Of a stretch of 64,000 bases of DNA, positions 308 to 63,764 are shown one piece after another (the stretch's first letter is position 1; each line of letters opens with the position of its first letter). Both the position numbers and the translations under genes were made by a program. Source of the stretch: Minisyncoccia bacterium (GTDB taxonomy: Bacteria; Patescibacteriota; Minisyncoccia; SW-4-49-11); NCBI GenBank assembly GCA_044341565.1, contig JBIIRM010000002.1, positions 1,812 to 65,811 on the forward strand, read 5' to 3'. The notes under the pieces are model-generated. The model was not told where the DNA came from. It worked only from the letters and a program-made list of their open reading frames with translations, and made no database searches.

Positions 308-3286
308 TTATATTCCGTAATTGATAGCCCCAATAGTAGGAAATTTAGCTTTAGTTGAATTAAAGAATAATTGGAGATCTTCTAAAGGAAGTGGTCTATT
401 ATAGGCAGATATATGAGATATATTTCCTCGATCAAGATAATAGATAGATGTGGTATAGGGAGGAGTGATGAGATTAGATGGGTAAATATCTGGAGCAGTA
501 AATACAAGATCCCCATTAATATATAGCCTAATTGGTTCATTTATGGTATTCGTAATAGCAATATGATACCATTTATTAGCTTCTGGGAGTATATTCGTAT
601 TATATGTATACTCTAGATATTCATAATCATCAGTCAGGTTATTATATGTAGCGCTACCAGTATTTATCATAAAATAACCTGACTCTATATATACAGAGTT
701 ATTAAAGGAATCCATTTGATCACTAGCATACGTAGAAATTAACGTAGTAGTATTCTCATCTAATACGGGCTTCACCCAAGTCATATAGGTAGAATTAGCC
801 AGAGACTCATCACCAGATAAATCTGTATTTATTGTAGTATAGTCAGCTCCTCTTAAACTACCCCCCTCATTAGAATCATACATAATACTAGGGTCTAAGG
901 ATATATCTCTATCATTAGGACTTAAATCATTCCAAGTTGTACCGCTTCCAGGATAAGATTCTGCACATACGTCTACATACTGAAGCAGACCATTATTGAT
1001 AGGAGGAGAAATACAATCTGTAGGGAAAATAAATGGATTAGTAGCTGGTAATTCTGGAGTTTCCTTAAAACAACTAAATATACAATTAGCATTATTACGA
1101 AGAGTAGGGAATGACACACCATTGCTTTGCCAAATAGTATCAAAATTCCAAGTATTAAAACTATTAGTCTGATACATTTGAGAAGTTGTAAGTGGAGTAG
1201 CATTATCTGCGGAAGATGTCTGTAAACTCGTCTCAGTATTCCAATAATTATTAGTACTATTTACTGCTAAATCTCCAGGATTAGTCAAAACAAACTCAAC
1301 TTGTCCAGCAAAACCGTTATTAATAGGATTTATAGCAAGAGGATTTTCAGAAATGACTTTTCCAGTAGAATAGCTACTCCTAATAACAGAATCTGTATTA
1401 TTGCCAACAAATCCACCAGTATAGATGCCCAATAGGAGAGTGTCTGTAGGTCCGAATAAATCCGAATTAGGCAATATCATCACATTACCTGTGGCATAAG
1501 AATTATGAATACCTATTTCTATAGGAGGATTGGTGTCTGCAATAGTAATTTCTGTACTTTCACCACCCAATATTGGATTTACTCCCTGCATATTACCTAC
1601 AAATCCTCCTGCATAATCAGACCCAATAGACACATTACCTGTAGTATATGAATTCATAATAGAAGTAGTCGCTCCACTCATACTACCAACAAAACCACCA
1701 GCAGTATAGGTATCAACAGACACATTGCCCGTAGCATGGGAGTTGCGAATACTTCCGCCGCCCATTATAGCTACAAATCCTCCTCCATGACCTCCTAATT
1801 TTCCTATATCAGGCTCATATACTACAGTTACATCTCCATTAGCACAAGAATTGAGTATTTCACCATTCTGCATTTGTCCTACAAGTCCACCAATAGATGC
1901 CCCCCCATCAACATCTGCATTAGCTGTAGAATTAGATATAGTCCCATCTTCCATCCAACCTATAAGCCCACCAATAATATTTCCACTACCATGTACCTGT
2001 CCATTAACAAGAGAATTGTCTATAAGTCCATTATTCATCCAACCCACAAGTCCGCCTCCATAGTAACCAAATCTTGCCCAAGATACACCCTCTACAACAG
2101 CATTACGTATTTCAGTTGTACCATCTGCATATCCCACTAGACCTCCTACATAGTGCTTTGCTAATATATAATTATCTTGTAATACAATATCATAAATCTT
2201 TGCATTATTCGTACGAGAAAATAATCCTACATAATAATTAAAGCCATCATTAAACCATGACCCCTCACGATTAATAGTAAGCCCTAATATCCCATATCCA
2301 TTACCATCAAAAGTCCCTGTAAAAGGTTCATCCGTATACCCATCTCCACCGATAGGGATAAATCCAAGTCCTTCATTCCAAGTCTCAGTACCTGTGGCAT
2401 CAATATGATTACCAAGTTTATAGGCAGCATTTAAGTCTTCACTCATAGCCTGTAATTCCCAGTCATTGTTAATAATATATGGGTTTTCTTTGGTACCATT
2501 CCCTGCTAGATCTGTAAAGACCTCTTCAATATTGGTAGGTTCAGAATCATGAGGTGTAGAGAGAGTATTAATAATGGAAATCTGGTTACTATATGTGGTA
2601 CCAGAATTAGTAGTGACATAAGCTCGGACATAATAATTATTCCTAATTTGCATATCATTAAACGAGGAGTCAAAATTACCATCAATATCAGAAGAAGATA
2701 TAACATTGTCAGAAAGAGTTGGATTAGGAGTTGTAGAATAAACAATTCCATTCCCTAATATAGTAGTGTTACCAGCTATAATAACAGTATTAATATCTGC
2801 ACAAGTGGCATTACACTTTACAAGAGTAACATTGATACTTAAGGGAACTGGTAAATTAGGGGTATTGGGGATAGTAATAGTGGGAGTAGGAGTATTAGGA
2901 ATAATAGTAGGGGTAGGAGTAGTTGGTTTAGCTTTAGGCTTCTGAGCTAATTTTTTAGGAGGGATAATAGGAGTGATTTCTTCATCCACCTTAATTTCGG
3001 GCTCAGGAAGCTGAATATCTATATCTGGAGTATTAGGTATAGGGGCATTAGGCTTTATTGGAGTAGAGACTTTAGGAGGTATAGGTGTCTGAACCAGAGG
3101 AGCTTTATTAAAAAAGCCATTAAATAAAGAAGGAATAATCCCCCCAGCAATAACAATAACAAATAATAATAAAATAGCAGTAATAATAATTAATCTATTT
3201 CTTCTTTTCGCTTCTTGTTTTTTTTGTTCATTAAACCTGAGCTGTATAGCAGGATCCTGCTCTATATTAAAGGGGATATTTTCCAT
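308..3286 (-). CDS. Large membrane-anchored surface protein: N-terminal TM helix, Pro/Thr-rich stalk, GLUG-type glycine repeat region, C-terminal LamG/concanavalin-like domain
   Basis: 992-aa ORF. TM segment LIIITAILLLFVIVIAGGIIPSLF, then a P/T/K-rich spacer. Many GG(L/F)(V/I)G(Y/W/Q/S/N) repeats (GGLVGY, GGLVGW, GGLIGW, GGLVGQ, GGFVGS, GGFVGN). The C-terminal WYHIAITNTINEPIRLYINGDLVF resembles Laminin_G_3 lectin folds. Confidence 0.6.
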   Translation of the reverse strand: MENIPFNIEQDPAIQLRFNEQKKQEAKRRNRLIIITAILLLFVIVIAGGIIPSLFNGFFNKAPLVQTPIPPKVSTPIKPNAPIPNTPDIDIQLPEPEIKVDEEITPIIPPKKLAQKPKAKPTTPTPTIIPNTPTPTITIPNTPNLPVPLSINVTLVKCNATCADINTVIIAGNTTILGNGIVYSTTPNPTLSDNVISSSDIDGNFDSSFNDMQIRNNYYVRAYVTTNSGTTYSNQISIINTLSTPHDSEPTNIEEVFTDLAGNGTKENPYIINNDWELQAMSEDLNAAYKLGNHIDATGTETWNEGLGFIPIGGDGYTDEPFTGTFDGNGYGILGLTINREGSWFNDGFNYYVGLFSRTNNAKIYDIVLQDNYILAKHYVGGLVGYADGTTEIRNAVVEGVSWARFGYYGGGLVGWMNNGLIDNSLVNGQVHGSGNIIGGLIGWMEDGTISNSTANADVDGGASIGGLVGQMQNGEILNSCANGDVTVVYEPDIGKLGGHGGGFVAIMGGGSIRNSHATGNVSVDTYTAGGFVGSMSGATTSIMNSYTTGNVSIGSDYAGGFVGNMQGVNPILGGESTEITIADTNPPIEIGIHNSYATGNVMILPNSDLFGPTDTLLLGIYTGGFVGNNTDSVIRSSYSTGKVISENPLAINPINNGFAGQVEFVLTNPGDLAVNSTNNYWNTETSLQTSSADNATPLTTSQMYQTNSFNTWNFDTIWQSNGVSFPTLRNNANCIFSCFKETPELPATNPFIFPTDCISPPINNGLLQYVDVCAESYPGSGTTWNDLSPNDRDISLDPSIMYDSNEGGSLRGADYTTINTDLSGDESLANSTYMTWVKPVLDENTTTLISTYASDQMDSFNNSVYIESGYFMINTGSATYNNLTDDYEYLEYTYNTNILPEANKWYHIAITNTINEPIRLYINGDLVFTAPDIYPSNLITPPYTTSIYYLDRGNISHISAYNRPLPLEDLQLFFNSTKAKFPTIGAINYGI

Positions 3287-5152: not shown

Positions 5153-6022
5153 ATGAAACCAAAAAAAGACTTATCATCACATTATACTCAATCAACTCCA
5201 AACTGGTGTCCAGGATGTGGGAATTATGGAATTTGGGTGGCACTCAAAAATGCTTTACAAGAATTAAAAATCCCAGCTCATAAAGTGGTATTAGTGGGAG
5301 ATGTTGGATGTTCAGGTAAATTATCCTATTGGACAGATTATAACGGATTTGCTGGATTACATGGAAGATCTATTCCTATTGCTGAGGGAATAAAAATGGC
5401 TAATTCTGATCTTACTATTATTGTAGTAGGAGGGGATGGGGGATTATTAGGAGAAGGATTACAGCATTTTTTGCATGCTTGTCGTCGTAATGTAAATATA
5501 GCAGTTATATTACATAATAATCAGGTATATGGACTTACTACAGGTCAGACTTCACCAACTTCTGATCCTGGATATAAAAGTTCAACCACTCCAGAAGGAT
5601 CTTATGAAACACCCTTAAATCCATCTCTTTTAGCTCTTACCGCACAGGCAACTTTTGTATCAGCAAGCTTTGCGGGGAATGTTCCTCATTTGACTCAAAC
5701 TATTAAATCAGCTATTCTACATCCAGGATTTGCTCTAGTTGATGCGTATCAGCCTTGTGTGACATATAATTATATTAATACCTATGAATTCTATTCCAAG
5801 AGGGTATATGATGTAACAACAACTCCCTATAAACCTAATGATAGATTTCGTGCAATGAAAAAATCTACCGAAATTGAAGGGGGTAAAAAATTCCCAATAG
5901 GAATATTATTTCAGGATACGGAGAAGCCATCTTTGCAGGAAAATATTCAAAATAGAGTGAAGCCACTCGTAAAACAACCAATCAAAAATATTTCCGTTAA
6001 GTCTTTATTTGAACAAGATTAG
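5153..6022 (+). CDS. 2-oxoacid:ferredoxin oxidoreductase, beta subunit (TPP-binding)
   Basis: WCPGCGNYGI and VVGGDGGLLGEG thiamine-diphosphate motifs; tightly coupled to the alpha subunit. Confidence 0.85.
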   Translation: MKPKKDLSSHYTQSTPNWCPGCGNYGIWVALKNALQELKIPAHKVVLVGDVGCSGKLSYWTDYNGFAGLHGRSIPIAEGIKMANSDLTIIVVGGDGGLLGEGLQHFLHACRRNVNIAVILHNNQVYGLTTGQTSPTSDPGYKSSTTPEGSYETPLNPSLLALTAQATFVSASFAGNVPHLTQTIKSAILHPGFALVDAYQPCVTYNYINTYEFYSKRVYDVTTTPYKPNDRFRAMKKSTEIEGGKKFPIGILFQDTEKPSLQENIQNRVKPLVKQPIKNISVKSLFEQD

Positions 6023-6025
6023 TAT

Positions 6026-6850
6026 ATGTCAGCTAAAATAGGAAAACTTCATATTGATACATTAAGTAAAAAAGAAGTTTTATCTCGAATTGAAAATGCA
6101 ATTGAGAAAAAAGATATATTGCAAATTGTAACTCCCTATTCAGAATTTGTAGTGGAGGCAGAATATAATACTAAATTTAGGGATGCAATTAATGCTAGTG
6201 AATTAAGGTTACCAGATGGAATTGGAATATTATGGGCAGGAGCTTATTTAGCTCATAAATGGAAGAGTTTATGGGGATCTTTATATGCTATTATGAATCA
6301 AGATAGTAAATTATATGCTATTTTTCCAGAAAAAATTAGTGGCTCAGACTTGATTTATGATATATTAGCTCTTGCAAGCAAAGCAGGATCAAGAATATAT
6401 TTATTGGGAGCAACAGAAGATGTATCGATAGCTGTACAGCAATATATTCATCAAGAATATCCTCGTATTACAATTGCTGGACGCAATACCAAAAAAGTTA
6501 AATTACAAGACAATGAATTATATCAAGAAATATTAGATAGTCATTCAGATATTGTATTAATAGCTTTGTCTTATCCTAAACAGGAAATTATTGGAAGTCA
6601 GCTAAAACAGTATTTTATTAAATATAAGCATAAAGGAATTATTGCCTGTATAGGAGGAAGTCTAGATTTTATTGCAGGTAGCCAGAGACGAGCTCCGAAA
6701 TGGATGCAAAAGCTAGGGTTGGAGTGGCTATTTCGTATAATTCAGCAGCCCAAAAGGATTAGACGAATTTATAAAGCTACCGTAGAATATATTCTTCTAA
6801 TCTCGAAGTATAAATCAAATATTGACAAAAACAAGGATAATGCTGTATAA
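6026..6850 (+). CDS. WecB/TagA/CpsF-family glycosyltransferase
   Basis: LPDGIGILWA, KQEIIG, GGSLDFIAGSQRRAPKWMQKLGLEWLFRIIQQPKR are the characteristic Glyco_tran_WecG motifs. Confidence 0.85.
   Translation: MSAKIGKLHIDTLSKKEVLSRIENAIEKKDILQIVTPYSEFVVEAEYNTKFRDAINASELRLPDGIGILWAGAYLAHKWKSLWGSLYAIMNQDSKLYAIFPEKISGSDLIYDILALASKAGSRIYLLGATEDVSIAVQQYIHQEYPRITIAGRNTKKVKLQDNELYQEILDSHSDIVLIALSYPKQEIIGSQLKQYFIKYKHKGIIACIGGSLDFIAGSQRRAPKWMQKLGLEWLFRIIQQPKRIRRIYKATVEYILLISKYKSNIDKNKDNAV
6786..6829. repeat. Direct repeat copy A (44 bp perfect; similarity continues about 25 nt further). Covers the 3' coding end of the WecG-like gene plus a -35 box.
   Basis: AATATATTCTTCTAATCTCGAAGTATAAATCAAATATTGACAAA is identical at 9054-9097. 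Confidence 0.95.
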
Positions 6851-6851
6851 T
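6822..6851 (+). promoter_or_regulatory. Sigma70-type promoter for the pilin-propeller gene
   Basis: TTGACA (6822-6827), 18-nt spacer, TG then TATAAT (6846-6851). The -10 box overlaps the stop codon of the upstream gene. Confidence 0.5.
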
Positions 6852-6863
6852 TAATAAACATAT

Positions 6864-9017
6864 ATGAAAATAAAAATAAAAAGAGTAAAGAAAGGATTCA
6901 CCTTACTCGAGATACTACTCGTAATAGTCGCAATAGGAATATTAGCAGCAATAGTATTAGTAGCAATCAACCCAAATAGACAAATAAGCCAAGTAAGGAA
7001 TGCGCAAAGGAGGTCGGATGTCAATACATTATATAAAGCACTGGAACAATATCTAATAGATAATCAAGTATATCCAGCAGATATAGATGGAACAACATCA
7101 AAAGAAGTTTGTAATACAGGAACAAGAAGTATAACAGATGATCTCCCCGATGAAAATTATTGTGATGGAAAAGCCGACTTAAGAGTCTTAGTCCCAGATT
7201 ATATAGCAGCCATACCAGTAGATCCAAGTGGGAATAACTATACAGTAAGGAAAAATGAAAGTAATAGCAATAATATTAAAATTTGTGTTAATGCCCCTGG
7301 GGTAGAATTAGGAAAAATTATAAAAATAAACTGTGAAGGCGAGGATGTAGCCTCAGGAGTACTTTTGCCATCAGATATATCGCCTTTTATAGAAGGTTTT
7401 GATGATTCTCTTGGAGAGTCGTTGTACGACGAACCTGGCACTAACGATGGAAGCTATGGATATGTATTTAATACCACTGAAGAGAGTATTGTAAACGCTT
7501 TAGGTTTTTCAGCACAAGACAACTGGACAAACACCAATCTAACATATACAGTTCAACTTTTGTCTTTTTCTGTTAACCCAGAAGATCCTGACATAGAGAC
7601 CTCCCTTACCTACCTATCTCTAGCAGAACTCACATTCAATCCCAATGATCCCGACTTACTTTTAGTTGATGGTTACTACTGGAAGCCTCTTCCAACTCCT
7701 ATTAATCTTGCAGCGTCCTCAAGCGATCCATATACCGGTTATAGCATAGTCGCTATTGGTAACTTTACTGATAATTTAGATCTAACACTACGTGGTAATT
7801 TTAAGGAAATTGATGGGCAACCGATCTTCTCTTCTTTGGGACTATATGAATTTGGTGGCTATAATCAAGTAGGTGCTCCATTTTATCCTTTGCCAATTCA
7901 AAGTAATGATCAATATGGATATTGGAATACTAATATATCAATTAAGTCACTTCAGGATCCTACCCCTGAAGGCTTTAATGGCCGAGTCGAAACTTTGGCT
8001 ATTCAATCAGATGGTAAAATATTTGTGGGGGGATGGTTTACTAACTATGAAGGGGTTGATTCAGTAAATAAAATAACCCGTCTTAATAGTGATGGAAGTA
8101 GAGATGATACCTTTATAGGCTCAGGATTTGATTCAGAATATAACGATGATTTGGAAGTTACTAGAGTTGACACTATTGCCATCCAAGCTAATGGCAAGAT
8201 AGTAGTGGGAGGCTCATTTACCAGCTACCAAGGAATAGCATCTAATAGAATAATCCGTCTTAATAGTGATGGAAGTATAGATACAAGTTTTAATGTAGAG
8301 ATAGAGTTTGATGATTGGGTGAGCGCTATTGCTATCCAGTCAGATGGAAAAATATTAGTAGGAGCAGATTATAATAAAATAATCCGTCTGAATAGTAATG
8401 GAAGTATAGACAGTAGCTTTAATATAGGAACAGGTTTTAATAATGCTGTAACTAATATTACTTTACAAAGTGATGGAAAAGTATTGGTAGGAGGAGTTTT
8501 TACTGGATATAATGGAGAATTAGCTAATAGAATAACCAGACTTAATTCAAATGGAAGTATAGACACAAGCTTTAATATGGGTACAGGCTTTGATAGTTGG
8601 GTTAACACCATCGCCATACAGGATGATGGAAAGATAATAGTGGGTGGAAATTTTTCTAGTTATCAGGGAGTAACAGCTAATAAAATAATCCGTCTGAATA
8701 GTAATGGAAGTATAGACAGTAGCTTTAATATAGGAACAGGTTTTAATAATGCTGTAACTAATATTACTTTACAAAGTGATGGAAAAGTATTGGTAGGAGG
8801 AGTTTTTACTGGATATAATGGAGAATTAGCTAATAGAATAACCAGACTTAATTCAAATGGAAGTAGAGATCTTAGCTTTGATATGGGATCAGGATTTAAT
8901 AATACGGTACAAACAATAACCGTTGATAGTGATGGAAAGATAATAGTAGGAGGTGATTTTACTAGTTATAAAGATCAAATTGCTAATTATTTTATTATAA
9001 TATATGAAGAATTGTAG
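6864..9017 (+). CDS. Type IV pilin-like protein fused to a roughly seven-blade beta-propeller (delta-60/DUF5122-like repeats); candidate pilus-displayed adhesin
   Basis: 717 aa. The N-terminus [27 protein letters not shown] is a prepilin cleavage/methylation motif (G|FTLLE). The C-terminal half carries seven (I/L)Q(S/A/D)DGK(I/V)(I/L)VGG and six (I/T)RLNS(D/N)GS(I/R)DxSF repeats. Confidence 0.8.
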   Translation: MKIKIKRVKKGFTLLEILLVIVAIGILAAIVLVAINPNRQISQVRNAQRRSDVNTLYKALEQYLIDNQVYPADIDGTTSKEVCNTGTRSITDDLPDENYCDGKADLRVLVPDYIAAIPVDPSGNNYTVRKNESNSNNIKICVNAPGVELGKIIKINCEGEDVASGVLLPSDISPFIEGFDDSLGESLYDEPGTNDGSYGYVFNTTEESIVNALGFSAQDNWTNTNLTYTVQLLSFSVNPEDPDIETSLTYLSLAELTFNPNDPDLLLVDGYYWKPLPTPINLAASSSDPYTGYSIVAIGNFTDNLDLTLRGNFKEIDGQPIFSSLGLYEFGGYNQVGAPFYPLPIQSNDQYGYWNTNISIKSLQDPTPEGFNGRVETLAIQSDGKIFVGGWFTNYEGVDSVNKITRLNSDGSRDDTFIGSGFDSEYNDDLEVTRVDTIAIQANGKIVVGGSFTSYQGIASNRIIRLNSDGSIDTSFNVEIEFDDWVSAIAIQSDGKILVGADYNKIIRLNSNGSIDSSFNIGTGFNNAVTNITLQSDGKVLVGGVFTGYNGELANRITRLNSNGSIDTSFNMGTGFDSWVNTIAIQDDGKIIVGGNFSSYQGVTANKIIRLNSNGSIDSSFNIGTGFNNAVTNITLQSDGKVLVGGVFTGYNGELANRITRLNSNGSRDLSFDMGSGFNNTVQTITVDSDGKIIVGGDFTSYKDQIANYFIIIYEEL
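8372..8559 (+). repeat. Intragenic perfect duplication, copy 1 (188 bp, offset 306 bp)
   Basis: Nucleotide-identical to 8678-8865. Encodes KIIRLNSNGSIDSSFNIGTGFNNAVTNITLQSDGKVLVGGVFTGYNGELANRITRLNSNGS. Confidence 0.9.
8678..8865 (+). repeat. Intragenic perfect duplication, copy 2
   Basis: Identical to 8372-8559 by direct comparison of the sequence lines. Confidence 0.9.
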
Positions 9018-9053
9018 TAGATATCAATCTACCAAAAGAGTTATATCACATTA

Positions 9054-9097
9054 AATATATTCTTCTAATCTCGAAGTATAAATCAAATATTGACAAA
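9054..9097. repeat. Direct repeat copy B (non-coding here)
   Basis: Identical 44-mer to 6786-6829. Followed by a related stretch: CATAAGTATAATAATGTATAATTAA here versus AACAAGGATAATGCTGTATAATTAA in copy A. Confidence 0.95.
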
Positions 9098-9119
9098 CAT
9101 AAGTATAATAATGTATAAT
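9090..9119 (+). promoter_or_regulatory. Sigma70-type promoter for rpmF (duplicate of the promoter at 6822)
   Basis: TTGACA (9090-9095), 18-nt spacer, TG then TATAAT (9114-9119). Confidence 0.5.
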
Positions 9120-9145
9120 TAACAGTAATTAAGTAATTATTTTGT

Positions 9146-9283
9146 ATGGCAGTACCAAAGAAGAGACATAATCATAGTAGAACCGGGAAAAACCGTTCTC
9201 ATCATGCTTTAAAACAAGTAGAAGCAAGAGTACGAGGAGTTTCTCATCGTTTGAAGAAATTTTTGACCCGAACTAATGGATAA
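9146..9283 (+). CDS. rpmF: 50S ribosomal protein L32
   Basis: Below the ORF-track size cut-off. Hand translation gives MAVPKKRHNHSRTGKNRSHHALKQVEARVRGVSHRLKKFLTRTNG*. MAVPKKR...R..HHAL is the L32 signature. Confidence 0.85.
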   Translation: MAVPKKRHNHSRTGKNRSHHALKQVEARVRGVSHRLKKFLTRTNG

Positions 9284-9321
9284 TGTTTAGTTTATAAATC
9301 GTCCTTAAATACCAAAAAAAT

Positions 9322-9756
9322 ATGGCAAATAGGCACTTTATGAGATCAGTAGCAATGCAAACACTGTATCAGATTGATGTTGCTGATTTATGGGAATATG
9401 AACAACTTTGGGATATTATTCAAGAGTCTTTATATCGTTTAGCTGAGGGAATAGAGGATATTTCTTATATTAAAGAGGTTATTTCAGGAGTATTAGAGCA
9501 TCGTACTCAAATTGATGCGGCTATTAGTAAATATGCTACTGGTTGGGTGGTAGAGACTATTGCTCCTGTTGAGCGAAATATTTTGCGTCTTGCAATTTAT
9601 GAAATTGACTACTATCAAGATAAAGATATTCCTCCTAAAGTTGCTATCAATGAAGCTATTGAACTAGCCAAAGCATTTAGTGGACCCGCAGCGGGGAAAT
9701 TTGTCAATGGAATATTAGGAGGATTATATAAGGATAAAGAGCCTATGAGTGTATGA
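9322..9756 (+). CDS. nusB: Transcription antitermination factor NusB
   Basis: 144 aa. R.AMQ.LYQ N-terminus, [22 protein letters not shown]. Confidence 0.85.
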
Positions 9757-10433
9757 GTAGATTAGCCATACTACAAGAGAAAATTGGATACCATTTTAAG
9801 AATATTGATTTATTAGAGCAAGCTTTAACACATAGATCTTATCTTAATGAAAACCCAGCATTTAAACTTGGCCATAATGAAAGGTTTGAGTTTTATGGGG
9901 ATGCAATATTAGAAGATATTGTTACAGCCTATTTGTTTCATCATTATACTGATAAAAATGAAGGGGAATTAACTAATTTAAGGGCAGCTCTTGTTAGGGG
10001 AGCTCATTTAGCTGAAATAGCTGAGCGCTTGGAATTAGACCAGTATTTAAATATATCTAATGGCGAGCGTAATGATCCAGGAGCAAAATCTTATATTAAT
10101 GCTAATGCAATTGAGGCTTTAATAGCAGCTATTCGACTAGATGGGGGATATGAAGTGGCCCAGAATTTTATTGATACCTTTATTATTCCAGATATCGAGA
10201 TAATTATTAAAGAAAAATTATTTATTGATGCTAAAAGTGTATTTCAAGAAAAAATTCAAGAACAAAAAGGTATTACTCCTCGATATGAAGTTATTACGGA
10301 GAAGGGTCCAGACCATAATAAAATATTTGAAGTGGCAGTATATGTAGAAAATATTGAATATGGAAAAGGTAAAGGTGCTTCTAAACAAAAAGCAGAGCAG
10401 GATGCTGCAAAAAATGCACTTGATAACATATAA
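9753..10433 (+). CDS. rnc: Ribonuclease III
   Basis: [13 protein letters not shown] catalytic motif, [17 protein letters not shown], and a C-terminal dsRBD ([14 protein letters not shown]...[18 protein letters not shown]). 4-nt overlap with nusB. Confidence 0.9.
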
Positions 10434-10436
10434 TAT

Positions 10437-10895
10437 ATGCATATAGGATATGATATTGATGGAGTTTTAACAAAGCGTGATTATACTCATGTATCTCGCT
10501 TTGGAATTAGGGGATTTATTGCCTTTTTTCAAGCATATTTCCCCCAAGTGATTAAACGTTGGACATTAAATCAGCCTTTACAAGATGATATAGAAATTGC
10601 CCAAAAAATTTCAAATGAACATACTATTTCTATTATTACGGCAAGACCAGCATCATTCCGCCGTTATACTGCACAATGGTTAAAAAATATTGCAAAAATA
10701 GAATATGATCATTTATATTGTGTAGGGCTTAAGAATGGGTTTTCTGAGCGTAAATTAAAAGTTGCTCAAGATTTGGAAATTGATGTTTTCCTGGATGATA
10801 CCAAAGAGACTATTGAATTATTTGAGGCCAATGGAATTAATGCTCATAAATTTGAAACATGGGCTGAGGTACAAGTCTATCTTAAAACATTATGA
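10437..10895 (+). CDS. HAD-superfamily hydrolase, putative (deoxy)nucleotidase-like
   Basis: N-terminal YDIDGVLT (HAD motif I), SIITARP, FLDDT. Confidence 0.5.
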   Translation: MHIGYDIDGVLTKRDYTHVSRFGIRGFIAFFQAYFPQVIKRWTLNQPLQDDIEIAQKISNEHTISIITARPASFRRYTAQWLKNIAKIEYDHLYCVGLKNGFSERKLKVAQDLEIDVFLDDTKETIELFEANGINAHKFETWAEVQVYLKTL

Positions 10896-17963: not shown

Positions 17964-18356
17964 ATGATTAATAAAAATAAAAAAGGATTTACCTTATTAG
18001 AAATAATACTCACAATTACTGCAATTGGGATATTATCGGCAATAGCTTTGGTGGCATTAAACCCGAATAAACAATTAGAGGCGGGAAAAGCGGTTAAAAG
18101 AAAAGCAGATATGGATGCTATTGCAAAGGCAATAGAGCAATATGTTGTCAATAATCGGGGACAATATCCACCAGCCCTACAATCTGTAGTGACAGGAGGA
18201 ACGGTAGGATTATGTGCTACAAATCCTTGTACAGGAGGTATAGATTTGACTACAGATCTAGACCCCTATATAGCAGCTATACCATTACCTGATATAGGTC
18301 AATATACTATTACTAAAACAGCCGCAGGTATTATATTGGAATATTCGTCTTTCTGA
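17964..18356 (+). CDS. Type IV pilin-like protein (prepilin N-terminal methylation domain)
   Basis: Start reassigned to the ATG at 17964: MINKNKKGFTLLEIILTITAIGILSAIALVALNPNKQ. The N-terminal 70 aa are clearly related to the N-terminus of the 6864 gene. Confidence 0.8.
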   Translation: MINKNKKGFTLLEIILTITAIGILSAIALVALNPNKQLEAGKAVKRKADMDAIAKAIEQYVVNNRGQYPPALQSVVTGGTVGLCATNPCTGGIDLTTDLDPYIAAIPLPDIGQYTITKTAAGIILEYSSF

Positions 18357-61937: not shown

Positions 61938-62354
61938 ATGAAACAGTTAAAAAAAGGATTTACACTTATTGAGCTTTTGGTTGTTATTGCTATTATTGGT
62001 ATTTTAGCAGCTATTGTACTTGTCAATGTATCTCAAGCTCGTCAAAAAGCTAGAGCAGCTGCTATTCTTGCGGCTTTGGGCCAGGTTAGAACATATATGG
62101 AGTTAAATGTCAATGCAAATGGTAGTTATCCAGCAGTATCAACTTTAACTAGTATTGCACAAAGCGTTGCAAATAGCCAAGGAACTACATTAACAGGAAG
62201 TGGTGCAAACTCAGCAACTTATCGAGCTTATACAACCCCTAGTAGTACTGGGGCTTGGGGCGCTGGTATTACAGCTATATGTGTGGATAGTACCGGTACT
62301 AGTAAAACGTATACCACGACATTTACTCCGGGAACTGCAGACACTTGTCCATAA
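61938..62354 (+). CDS. Type IV pilin (probable major pilin)
   Basis: [31 protein letters not shown]-rich globular part with a C-terminal Cys pair. Strong SD AAGGGGGG 9 nt upstream. Confidence 0.9.
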
Positions 62355-63278: not shown

Positions 63279-63764
63279 ATGAAAAAAGGATTTACATTAG
63301 CAGAATTAATCGTATCCATCTCCATTATCACCCTATTATCTGTTATTGGTGTACAGACTTATGTTACTGCTCAGCGTAGCGCACAATTAAAGTCAGATGT
63401 AATAACAGTGACTTCTGCTATTAGACAAGCTCAGAATAGAGCTTTATCTCCTTCTCGAAGTGATTTAACTGGAATAGGAATTGATGATGAGCTTTGTGCT
63501 ATGGGGGTGGAGGTAATTGCACCAAAGACAATTAAAAGTTATTATGTTGTGAAGCCATGTAGTACTACTACTCCCACTTATTATGGTACAGACATAGTAT
63601 TACAAAGTGCTACATTGAAGTCAGGAGGGAAATTTGAATTCAGATTACCTTTTGCTAATAATAGATCCACAGCACAATCAATACAATTAGAATTGCCAGG
63701 ATCAGGAGTGGTGGAAAAAACAATCACTGTTACAAAAGATTCTGGATTAATTAAGGTTGAATAA
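63279..63764 (+). CDS. Minor pilin/pseudopilin
   Basis: MKKGFTLAELIVSISIITLLSVIGV prepilin motif. Confidence 0.8.
   Translation: MKKGFTLAELIVSISIITLLSVIGVQTYVTAQRSAQLKSDVITVTSAIRQAQNRALSPSRSDLTGIGIDDELCAMGVEVIAPKTIKSYYVVKPCSTTTPTYYGTDIVLQSATLKSGGKFEFRLPFANNRSTAQSIQLELPGSGVVEKTITVTKDSGLIKVE

What the first reader, a model, noticed from the sequence alone, without database searches (positions are those of the whole stretch)
6786..9119. Pilin-propeller gene bracketed by a duplicated gene-end-plus-promoter segment
**Observation.** The 44-mer AATATATTCTTCTAATCTCGAAGTATAAATCAAATATTGACAAA occurs at 6786-6829 and again at 9054-9097. About 80% identity continues through the TG-TATAAT box of each copy.

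**Context.** Copy A is the last ~15 codons (EYILLISKYKSNIDK) of the WecG/TagA-like gene plus the promoter of the 717-aa pilin-propeller gene. Copy B is non-coding and sits in front of rpmF.

**Interpretation.** A 2,268-bp unit (promoter plus gene) therefore appears to have been inserted or duplicated between the tagA-like gene and rpmF. It leaves a non-coding relic of the tagA-like 3' end and gives both genes the same promoter. No transposase or integrase is present, so the mechanism is unclear. Recombination between the direct repeats could excise the gene.
Basis: seen in the sequence. Interest (0 to 1): 0.5.

Follow-up and report, generated by a model that had tools for sequence, protein, structure and literature searches.

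The report
Pilin gene inserted with duplicated promoter
In one lineage of an ultrasmall (CPR/Paceibacteria) bacterium, a surface pilin-propeller gene was spliced by recombination between a cell-wall gene and a ribosomal-protein operon, and the 69-base stretch that is both the end of the first gene and the operon's promoter was duplicated so both stay functional; it is a clean but not unprecedented example of gene gain.

Summary
The 44-mer is exact at 6786-6829 and 9054-9097. The repeat is really 69 nt (64/69 identical), and all 5 mismatches lie in the 18-nt spacer between TTGACA and TATAAT.

The insertion reading is supported. Ten sequenced relatives, plus about 19 further near-identical contigs of the L089-like population, have tagA directly followed by rpmF, with the rpmF promoter inside the last codons of tagA. 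Only the window's lineage (three assemblies) carries the pilin/delta-60-propeller gene there.

- **Role of each copy:** copy A completes tagA and drives the new gene. Copy B is the ancestral rpmF promoter plus a 42-nt non-coding tagA tail.
- **Mobile-element signs:** there is no recombinase, terminal inverted repeat or structured att-like site.
- **Imported patch:** window ~6700-9135 sits in an L004-like genome and, with the insert removed, is about 97% identical to the always-empty L089 population.
- **Two alleles:** spacer B equals L089's (18/18) and spacer A is the L005/L091 allele (17/18), so the copies are two alleles, not drifted duplicates.
- **Left joint:** it falls in a 6-10-nt microhomology between two -10 regions.

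Best mechanism: homologous plus illegitimate recombination, then homologous import. No excision product was found. This is a well-documented new member of a known kind of event, of moderate interest.

The parts
6026..6850 (+). WecG/TagA/CpsF-family glycosyltransferase gene (274 aa). Its last ~30 codons contain the downstream promoter, and its stop TAA (6848-6850) lies inside the -10 box.
   Evidence: PF03808 E=1.1e-45, TIGR00696 above cutoff; ORF and frame
6698..9140 (.). Imported recombinant patch (breakpoints 6698-6707 and 9131-9140). It is L089/L009-type DNA embedded in an L004-like genome and carries both repeat copies and the inserted gene.
   Evidence: Sliding-window identity and informative-site runs. 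With the insert removed, the patch matches L089 with 1/86, 3/44 and 0/49 mismatches in successive segments, while the flanks are 75-80% identical.
6786..6854 (+). Repeat copy A (69 nt): the coding end of tagA plus the promoter now driving the pilin-propeller gene. Spacer 6828-6845 is the L005/L091-type allele.
6822..6851 (+). Promoter A: TTGACA-18 nt-TATAAT (12/12), with TG immediately upstream of the -10 box
   Evidence: sequence
6849..6863 (+). Left joint and pilin 5'UTR. AATTAA (6849-6854) is shared by the tagA-end promoter and the conserved pilin promoter module. From here the sequence is homologous to pilin modules of L089/L093/L094/L095.
   Evidence: 86% DNA identity over 221 nt starting at AATTAATAAACAT; upstream alignment of 14 pilin genes
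6864..9017 (+). Inserted gene: 717-aa prepilin-type N-terminus (cleavage motif KKG|FTLLE), pilin head (~1-156), orphan middle domain (~157-370) and delta-60/DUF5122 beta-propeller repeats (~370-717)
   Evidence: PF07963, TIGR02532, PF17164 (E=4.6e-85, 7 stretches) and TIGR02608, all above cutoffs; the middle domain has no homologue outside its own 90% cluster
8372..8977 (+). Intragenic tandem duplication of a 306-bp two-blade unit, absent from the two other strain assemblies (615 and 621 aa versus 717 aa)
9018..9053 (+). 36-nt tail of the insert, of unknown origin, with a weak hairpin GTAGAT-ATCA-ATCTAC. The right (illegitimate) joint is at 9053|9054. L001 has a 19-bp deletion here that removes the stop codon.
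9054..9122 (+). Repeat copy B (69 nt): a non-coding relic of the tagA end (reads YILLISKYKSNIDKHKYNNV* in frame, equal to the L089 TagA tail) plus the ancestral rpmF promoter. Spacer 9096-9113 is identical to L089's.
9090..9119 (+). Promoter B: TTGACA-18 nt-TATAAT (12/12), the conserved promoter of rpmF-nusB-rnc in all relatives
9123..9145 (+). rpmF leader, with conserved AAGTAATTAT. The right recombination breakpoint of the patch lies at 9131-9140.
9146..10433 (+). rpmF (L32, 45 aa), nusB and rnc: the downstream operon whose expression is preserved by copy B

Best explanation
A ~2.2-kb gene for a pilin-headed, delta-60 beta-propeller surface protein was gained at the tagA|rpmF junction of one Paceibacteria (CPR) lineage by recombination, not by a mobile-element enzyme.

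In this clade the promoter of rpmF-nusB-rnc is embedded in the last ~30 codons of tagA, and the tagA stop lies inside the -10 box. A gene can therefore be placed between the two only if the shared segment is present twice. The result is that copy A finishes tagA and drives the new gene from a perfect consensus promoter with a leader of only a few nucleotides. Copy B keeps the original promoter on the essential operon, with 42 nt of inert tagA tail upstream of the spacer.

The steps below are inferred, not shown.
1. In some genome X with an A-type tagA end, a pilin module lost its own poly-G promoter. It became fused to the tagA-end promoter at the microhomology TATAA(A)TTAA.
2. X DNA entered a sister lineage of the L089 population through two junctions. 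One was a homologous crossover in the 22-24-nt stretch at the end of the 44-mer that is identical among the alleles. The other was an illegitimate joint between the 36-nt tail and the first base of the 44-mer. This gave the direct repeat with two different spacer alleles. The outcome is of the homology-facilitated illegitimate recombination or Campbell-type kind.
3. The filled junction (~6700-9135) was then transferred by ordinary double-crossover homologous recombination into the L004-like genome seen in the window.
For: - **Gain:** all 10 sequenced relatives with an intact junction are empty, tagA-(~30 bp)-rpmF. So are about 19 further contigs of the L089-type population. Both the closest relative of the flanks (L004, 94-95% identity over 11.6 kb, with the insert as the only large indel) and the closest relative of the patch (L089) are empty.
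- **Embedded promoter:** TTGACA-N18-TATAAT lies inside the tagA 3' end in every relative, and the tagA stop lies inside the -10 box even in distant L082. The two copies are the only 12/12 consensus promoters in 5900-9900, and there is no terminator between the pilin gene and rpmF.
- **Imported patch:** informative sites are L004-type up to 6697, L005/L009-type from 6708 to 9130, and L004-type from 9141. Identity to L004 falls to 66% in 6695-6844.
- **Two alleles:** spacer B plus the leader are identical to L089 in six strains. Spacer A matches L091 and L005/L090 at 17/18. At L005-versus-L009 informative sites, spacer A is 5/0 L005-like and its flanks are 15/4 L009-like (Fisher p = 0.003).
- **44-mer:** the three differences from L089 are all synonymous in the tagA frame.
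- **Left joint:** homology to the conserved pilin promoter/5'UTR module begins at AATTAATAAACAT, inside the -10 region.
- **No enzyme signature:** there is no recombinase or transposase in 308-20740, no terminal inverted repeats and no structure in the repeat (z about 0).
- **Literature:** one-sided homology plus an illegitimate joint, and single crossovers that duplicate 109-950 bp of the anchor, are documented (PMC3240628). Displacement arrays with orphaned gene ends have been attributed to the same process (PMC5361080).
Against: - **No intermediates:** neither X (an A-type tagA end fused to this pilin gene without copy B) nor the donor (an L089-like genome with a filled site) has been found. 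All 24 L089-type contigs read are empty.
- **Right joint:** its native partner is unknown, so microhomology there cannot be assessed.
- **Topology:** a linear two-joint event that places the illegitimate joint upstream of the homologous crossover needs a circular intermediate or two sister duplexes. A simple reciprocal single crossover would predict X-type bases at positions 1-20 of copy B, which cannot be verified.
- **Mismatch distribution:** 0 mismatches in the 44-mer against 5 in the spacer is not reproduced by average substitution rates among orthologous alleles, so some gene conversion may also be involved.
- **Small samples:** the allele typing rests on 18-nt spacers.
Confidence: 0.6

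Rival explanations
1. An older in-situ duplication with concerted evolution and recurrent excision. The gene was inserted once, with an exact 69-nt duplication, in the common ancestor of the L089/L009/L006 lineages and the patch donor. The non-coding copy B then drifted in its spacer while gene conversion kept the 44-mers identical. L089 and L009/L006 are excision products of recombination between the repeats, so their present TagA tails descend from copy B.
For: L089's junction is exactly the predicted A x B recombination product: tagA tail + 44-mer + spacer B + leader. Three of spacer B's five differences from A match the L009/L006 state. The three window-specific 44-mer changes lie within 9 nt, are synonymous and occur in both copies, so one short A-to-B conversion tract would explain them. 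Conversion tracts could not easily include a spacer that has only 11 nt of homology on its right.
Against: It requires at least two independent excisions that each went to fixation; 24 of 24 L089-type contigs are empty. It also requires long persistence of a gene for which no diverged copy exists anywhere: the middle domain is found only in one 90% cluster. Perfect identity of a 44-nt non-coding relic would have to be maintained over ~20-25% genomic divergence. Frequent repeat recombination would be expected to delete the gene rather than maintain it.
Confidence: 0.2
2. A mobile-element or site-specific insertion. A transposase, integrase or integron-like enzyme encoded elsewhere inserted a cassette with a very long target-site duplication, or with attL/attR cores.
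For: Direct repeats bracket the insert exactly. The target gene's 3' end is restored, as with islands integrated in tRNA genes. The 44-nt core is identical in both copies.
Against: There is no recombinase gene in the insert or within about 6-11 kb on either side. There are no terminal inverted repeats or att/attC-like structure. Sixty-nine bp is far beyond known target-site duplications (own knowledge). A target-site duplication or att core would be identical at birth, yet the spacers are two natural alleles. Other pilin-headed insertions in relatives show no bracket repeats. The 28-mer is absent from viral contigs.
Confidence: 0.07
3. The arrangement is ancestral and was lost from all relatives, or the repeat is a dispersed promoter element or an assembly artefact.
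For: The distant relative L082 also has a pilin-propeller gene directly after tagA.
Against: The L082 protein shares only the generic pilin head (43%) and the propeller repeats, not the middle domain, and L082 has no rpmF downstream and no bracket repeat. The repeat has only two copies in 64 kb, and its orthologue is single-copy tagA coding sequence in all relatives. Three independent assemblies show the same structure.
Confidence: 0.03

Closest known systems
Homology-facilitated illegitimate recombination (HFIR) and single-crossover (Campbell-type) integration during natural transformation or conjugation (de Vries & Wackernagel 2002; Prudhomme et al. 2002; Meier & Wackernagel 2003, as cited in PMC5361080; PMC3240628)
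   Same: There is a one-sided homologous anchor (the tagA end) next to foreign DNA. There is an illegitimate joint at short microhomology (6-10 nt at the left joint). The anchor is duplicated on both sides of the insert; PMC3240628 reports 109-950-bp duplications from single crossovers. No dedicated recombinase is needed.
   Different: This is a natural event inferred from comparative data, not an experimental one. The duplicated anchor is only 44-69 nt. The two anchor copies carry different alleles. The duplication is functionally required, because the anchor is both a gene end and a promoter. The filled site was subsequently moved again by ordinary homologous recombination.
Displacement arrays at T6SS effector-immunity, Rhs and CDI loci (PMC5361080 and references therein)
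   Same: A conserved upstream gene region serves as the recombination anchor for incoming modules. Orphaned fragments of the previous gene end are pushed downstream and persist as relics. No integrase is involved.
   Different: The relic here is a 42-nt tail retained together with a working promoter for an unrelated essential operon, not an orphan toxin tip or immunity gene. There has been a single insertion, not an array. The cargo is a pilin-type surface protein.
Genomic islands integrated at tRNA/tmRNA gene 3' ends (own knowledge)
   Same: The insert is bracketed by direct repeats that reconstitute the 3' end of the target gene, leaving a partial non-functional copy at the far end.
   Different: There is no integrase and no tRNA target. 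The repeat copies are allelic variants rather than an identical att core. The cargo is a single gene.
Pilin-headed modular surface proteins of Patescibacteria type IV pili (T4P biology in Saccharibacteria: PMC11623550)
   Same: The protein has an N-terminal prepilin cleavage/methylation motif and a pilin head shared at 50-74% identity with hundreds of CPR proteins. Their C-terminal domains vary: FGE-sulfatase, LamG or delta-60 propeller.
   Different: This particular combination (head, orphan middle domain and a 5- or 7-repeat delta-60 propeller) occurs only in this strain cluster. Its function as a minor or tip pilin adhesin is inferred, not shown.

Membership tests
HFIR / single-crossover recombinational insertion | Homologous anchor adjoining the foreign DNA on one side | tested here: met
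   The tagA end and promoter (6700-6854) are homologous to the recipient allele. The crossover is inferred within the 22-24-nt stretch that is identical among alleles.
HFIR / single-crossover recombinational insertion | Illegitimate joint at short microhomology on the other side | tested here: inconclusive
   The left (older) joint shows 6-nt perfect / 10-nt gapped microhomology between the two -10 regions. The right joint, 9053|9054, cannot be assessed because the native sequence after the pilin gene is unknown.
HFIR / single-crossover recombinational insertion | Duplication of the anchor flanking the insert (single-crossover outcome) | tested here: met
   69-nt direct repeat at 6786-6854 / 9054-9122
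HFIR / single-crossover recombinational insertion | Donor and recipient alleles distinguishable in the product | tested here: met
   Spacer A is the L005/L091 type (17/18). Spacer B is the L089 type (18/18). Fisher p = 0.003.
Transposon / IS element | Transposase gene and terminal inverted repeats | tested here: not met
   The insert holds only the pilin-propeller ORF. No transposase or integrase domain is present in genes from 308 to 20740. There are no terminal inverted repeats.
Transposon / IS element | Short identical target-site duplication (typically 2-15 bp) | tested here: not met
   The repeat is 69 nt, with 5 allelic differences.
Integrase-mediated island / integron cassette | Adjacent tyrosine or serine recombinase gene; att/attC site with characteristic structure | tested here: not met
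   There is no recombinase. The repeat folds no better than shuffles (z = -0.08 and -0.06).
Type IV pilin-like proteins (prepilin N-terminal cleavage/methylation) | N-terminal G|FxxxE motif followed by a hydrophobic helix | tested here: met
   KKG|[24 protein letters not shown]02532 scores 26.7 bits against a cutoff of 16.3, and PF07963 scores 24.2 against 21.2.
Delta-60 repeat / DUF5122 beta-propeller proteins | Tandem ~51-60-aa delta-60 repeats | tested here: met
   PF17164 scores 280 bits with 7 stretches. TIGR02608 scores 183.5 bits against a cutoff of 76.5. The repeat period is 153 nt. The fold itself was not modelled.
WecG/TagA/CpsF glycosyltransferases (the gene whose end is duplicated) | Full-length Glyco_tran_WecG domain | tested here: met
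   PF03808 matches residues 59-249 with E = 1.1e-45. The duplicated segment encodes residues 254-274, beyond the Pfam domain but conserved among relatives.

The most novel reading that the evidence does not exclude
Pilin-headed genes of Paceibacteria may behave as a recombinase-free mobile cassette family. A conserved portable module would supply the homology: a promoter with a variable poly-G tract, a 5'UTR and the first ~75 codons of the pilin head. That homology would let diverse C-terminal adhesin domains hop between unrelated intergenic sites and between genomes by natural transformation. The tagA|rpmF event would then be one instance in which such a cassette swapped its phase-variable promoter for a constitutive housekeeping promoter.
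Probability: 0.25. Interest if true: 0.65.

Novelty: new member of a known kind. Interest (0 to 1): 0.4.

Why it matters
- **Documented gene gain in an uncultivated group:** this is an unusually complete natural record of how a CPR bacterium gains a surface-protein gene. The group has tiny genomes and few classical mobile elements. Both parental empty sites were identified, both recombination breakpoints are mapped to within about 10 nt, and the alleles of the two repeat copies can be traced to separate lineages.
- **Why the duplication is there:** the genome is so compact that a promoter overlaps the preceding gene's coding end. Insertion is therefore viable only if the overlap is duplicated, which explains the repeat without invoking an enzyme.
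- **Cargo:** the gene is a strain-variable pilin-type putative adhesin (5 versus 7 propeller repeats between strains). This is the class of protein expected to determine host attachment in episymbiotic CPR bacteria.
- **Population structure:** the data imply frequent homologous exchange between Paceibacteria that differ by 20-25% in DNA sequence.

Tried and rejected
1. **Longer relic:** I tested whether the relic extends left of 9054 in degenerate form. The local alignment score was no better than shuffles (p = 0.33).
2. **Shared 12-mer:** GTAGATATCAAT occurs both in the window's 36-nt tail and in the L082 pilin leader. One copy in the window is within chance expectation, so I dropped it.
3. 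**Rate test:** I tried to separate 'two orthologous alleles' from 'neutral drift of copy B' using substitution rates among relatives. The rates are saturated and inconsistent between pairs (overall spacer/coding ratio 1.3), and both models predicted more 44-mer differences than observed. I replaced this with allele typing.
4. **Exact 28-mer scans:** scans of metagenome contigs and viral contigs gave no hits, so no excision variant or extra copy was found there.
5. **Excision product by protein:** the window's TagA 90% cluster has a single sequence. All seven L089-type TagA variants have the B-type tail, and all contigs read are empty.
6. **L082 as ancestral arrangement:** I considered the L082 tagA-then-pilin-propeller order as evidence of ancestry. 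I rejected it because the proteins share only generic modules.
7. **Bracket repeats elsewhere:** I looked for them at other pilin-gene insertion sites (L005/L090, L092, L094, L095) and found none. L093 has only tandem paralogues.
8. **Rfam:** a scan of 6000-10500 found nothing.
9. **Middle domain:** searches for homologues of residues 157-370 found none.


Full report
**1. Observation**

The 44-mer is present exactly at 6786-6829 and 9054-9097. No third copy exists in the 64-kb window even with 3 mismatches, and none is expected by chance. Extension gives a 69-nt direct repeat, 6786-6854 / 9054-9122, 64/69 identical and 2268 bp apart.

All five mismatches lie in the 18-nt spacer between TTGACA and TATAAT (p = 7.6e-4). 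The left edge is sharp, with no significant tagA similarity upstream of 9054. To the right, the copies diverge immediately after TATAATTAA.

Copy A encodes the last 21 residues of the WecG/TagA-family ORF 6026-6850, and the stop codon lies inside the -10 box. The -10 box ends 12 nt before the ATG of the 717-aa ORF 6864-9017. Copy B is intergenic, and its -10 box ends 26 nt before the rpmF ATG. These two sites are the only 12/12 sigma-70 consensus matches in 5900-9900, and no terminator separates the pilin gene from rpmF.

The inserted ORF has four parts:
- a prepilin cleavage/methylation N-terminus;
- a GspG-like pilin head;
- an orphan middle domain;
- delta-60/DUF5122 propeller repeats.

**2. 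The site is empty in every relative**

Using the TagA protein, I fetched eight related Paceibacteria/Parcubacteria genomes with TagA at 62-86% identity. All seven with an intact junction have the order porA-porB-tagA-rpmF-nusB-rnc-hyp-uppP-tpiA, with about 30 bp between tagA and rpmF.

In each of them a TTGACA-N18-TATAAT promoter lies inside the tagA 3' end, followed by a conserved leader, AAGTAATTAT…ATGGCAGTACC. A degenerate-pattern scan of metagenome contigs added three more empty sites, L089-L091. Of the 24 contigs read for L089-type TagA, five were shown as tagA followed directly by rpmF. The other 19 were collapsed by the tool as having mostly the same neighbours.

The filled arrangement occurs only in the window's strain cluster: the 132-kb source contig, a 75-kb contig and L001. 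The window and its closest relative L004 are colinear over about 13.9 kb at 94-95% identity, and this insert is the only large indel. The gene is therefore a gain, and copy B plus its leader is the ancestral rpmF promoter region.

**3. Why a duplication**

The tagA coding end and the rpmF promoter overlap completely. The -35 box lies 7 codons before the stop, and the stop lies inside the -10 box. This is true even in the distant relative L082.

A gene inserted after the tagA stop would separate rpmF-nusB-rnc from their promoter. A gene inserted before the promoter would truncate tagA. Only an arrangement with the shared segment on both sides preserves both functions. This is inference from the anatomy and does not depend on the mechanism.

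One consequence is that the new gene is driven by a consensus promoter with a very short leader. The -10 box ends at 6851 and the ATG is at 6864.

**4. The junction is a recombinational import**

I aligned the window, with the insert removed, against seven relatives. It is 96-100% identical to L004 on both sides. In 6695-6844, identity to L004 falls to 66%, while identity to L005/L009/L006 rises to 83-87%.

Informative sites switch from L004-type (up to 6697) to the other type (6708-9130) and back again (from 9141). With the insert removed, this patch compares to L089 as follows:

| Segment | Mismatches to L089 |
|---|---|
| tagA tail (6700-6785) | 1 of 86 |
| 44-mer | 3 of 44 |
| spacer B, -10 box and leader | 0 of 49 |

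Sequence outside the patch is only 75-80% identical to L089. So the filled junction arose in, or passed through, a sister lineage of the L089 population. It then entered the L004-like genome by double-crossover homologous recombination, with breakpoints at 6698-6707 and 9131-9140.

**5. The two copies are two alleles**

- Spacer B is identical to L089's spacer in six strains.
- Spacer A differs from it at 5 of 18 positions but matches L091 and L005/L090 at 17 of 18.
- At sites that distinguish L005 from L009, spacer A is 5/0 L005-like, whereas the tagA tail, both 44-mers, spacer B and the leader together are 15/4 L009-like (Fisher p = 0.003).
- The three differences between the window's 44-mer and L089's are all synonymous in the tagA frame and occur in both copies.

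Simple duplication followed by drift cannot produce a 28% spacer difference against a patch background divergence of only 1-3%. An A-type promoter spacer must have arrived with the gene.

**6. The left joint**

The window's gene shares 86% DNA identity over 221 nt with L089's post-tpiA pilin gene, starting at AATTAATAAACAT (6849), inside the -10 region.

That gene belongs to a family (L089, L092, L093a, L094, L095, L096) with a conserved promoter module: TTGACA-…-G7-10-…-TATAAATTAATAAACATCTATG. In the window, everything upstream of AATTAA is tagA-end sequence instead. The switch lies in a microhomology that is 6 nt perfect, or 10 nt with one indel, between the two -10 regions.

The 36-nt tail after the stop codon has no recognisable relative, so the right joint (9053|9054) cannot be analysed.

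**7. Mechanism**

There is no recombinase or transposase in genes from 308 to 20740. There are no terminal inverted repeats, no structure in the repeat, no Rfam hit and no viral match.

The pattern has three elements: one homologous junction, microhomology at an illegitimate junction, and a duplicated anchor carrying distinguishable alleles. It fits homology-facilitated illegitimate recombination or single-crossover integration. Both are documented experimentally, including anchor duplications of 109-950 bp (PMC3240628). Both have also been invoked for displacement arrays with orphaned gene ends (PMC5361080).

My minimal model has three steps; all are inferred.
1. A pilin module became fused to an A-type tagA-end promoter.
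2. The fusion was integrated into an L089-sister chromosome, creating the repeat.
3. The filled junction was imported by homologous recombination into the present genome.

The main rival is an older in-situ duplication with gene conversion of the 44-mer, in which L089 and L009 are excision products. It is self-consistent. L089's junction has exactly the form of an A x B deletion product. However, it needs repeated fixed excisions and long persistence of a gene that has no diverged copies anywhere.

**8. Excision**

No excision variant was found. The window-type TagA cluster has a single sequence, and the window-type 28-mer is absent from the scanned metagenome contigs. Excision through the 44-nt identity remains plausible but untested.

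**9. Comparison and verdict**

This is a recombinational gene insertion with anchor duplication, which is a known kind of event, and it is here documented unusually completely in a CPR bacterium. The features that define a transposon, an integrase-mediated island or an integron cassette were tested and not met.

The cargo belongs to the large family of modular pilin-headed CPR surface proteins (for T4P roles in CPR see PMC11623550). Its role as an adhesin is inferred.

Novelty: new member of a known kind. Interest: moderate (0.4). The most novel reading still open is that pilin-headed genes form a recombinase-free cassette system, with a portable and possibly phase-variable promoter/head module.

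Noticed in passing
window 8372-8977; L001 3204-3500: A 306-bp (two-blade) tandem duplication inside the propeller region, with copies 88% identical and long exact stretches. The other two strain assemblies lack exactly 102 aa (615 and 621 aa versus 717 aa). This is either real blade-number polymorphism (5 versus 7 repeats) or short-read assembly collapse.
   Followed up: partly
L089 (reverse strand) ~7325; L092 6183; L093 232; L094 6950; L095 6951; L096 77: Pilin-headed genes in relatives share a conserved promoter module with a homopolymeric G tract of variable length (G7 to G10) between TTGACA and the -10 region. This is the classical design of a phase-variable promoter. The window's gene has lost this module.
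   Followed up: partly
L094 7001-7762 and L095 7001-7762: The identical 253-aa pilin-headed protein (P0156), followed by the same FGE-sulfatase-like ORF, sits in two unrelated contexts: after gyrB and after dnaK/vanZ. Both are at contig ends. This suggests a dispersed, recombining repeat that breaks assemblies.
   Followed up: no
L005 9372-10634, L090 8816-, L003 12337-, L089 ~7392-, L101 5172-: A second variable site. Several relatives carry a pilin-headed gene (FGE-sulfatase-type C-terminus where known) between tpiA and the cupin gene. These two genes are adjacent in the window, L004 and L002. No bracket repeat is present there.
   Followed up: partly
L082-L085 5140-11332: In a distant groundwater relative (TagA 45% identical), tagA is followed by a 953-aa pilin-propeller gene and then a pilin-headed DUF285 protein, each preceded by AAAAATATGATATAAT. 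The site and architecture are the same, but the protein is not orthologous in the middle region.
   Followed up: partly
L088 3247-8571: Two tandem pilin-propeller genes (886 and 856 aa) with near-identical upstream regions lie directly upstream of infA-rpsM-rpsK-rpsD-rpoA.
   Followed up: no
L001 3520-3561 versus window 9004-9053: A 19-bp deletion in strain L001 removes the window's stop codon and the small hairpin. The ORF then runs to a TAA that overlaps the first base of copy B, giving a new tail, YTKRVISH.
   Followed up: yes
window ~9940-10240 (rnc): A second mosaic segment. Here the window is closer to L002/L003 (85-89%) than to L004 (81-83%), the reverse of the surrounding sequence. This suggests frequent homologous exchange in the population.
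   Followed up: no
window 6757-6772 / 6787-6802: An imperfect 16-nt inverted repeat in tagA (88% complementary, 14-nt loop). Its right arm begins one base inside the left edge of the direct repeat. Two of the three window-specific synonymous changes increase its complementarity. This may be chance.
   Followed up: no
window 308-3286 (minus strand): A 992-aa ORF with GLUG motifs and a LamG (Laminin_G_3) domain, probably another large surface protein, lies just upstream of porA.
   Followed up: no
window 17964-18356, 61938-62354, 63279-63764: Three further small pilin-type genes (130-161 aa, GFTL[LIA]E motif) are present in the window. The first overlaps, on the opposite strand, the listed 5' end of a long ORF whose product looks like a metal-binding lipoprotein.
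   Followed up: no
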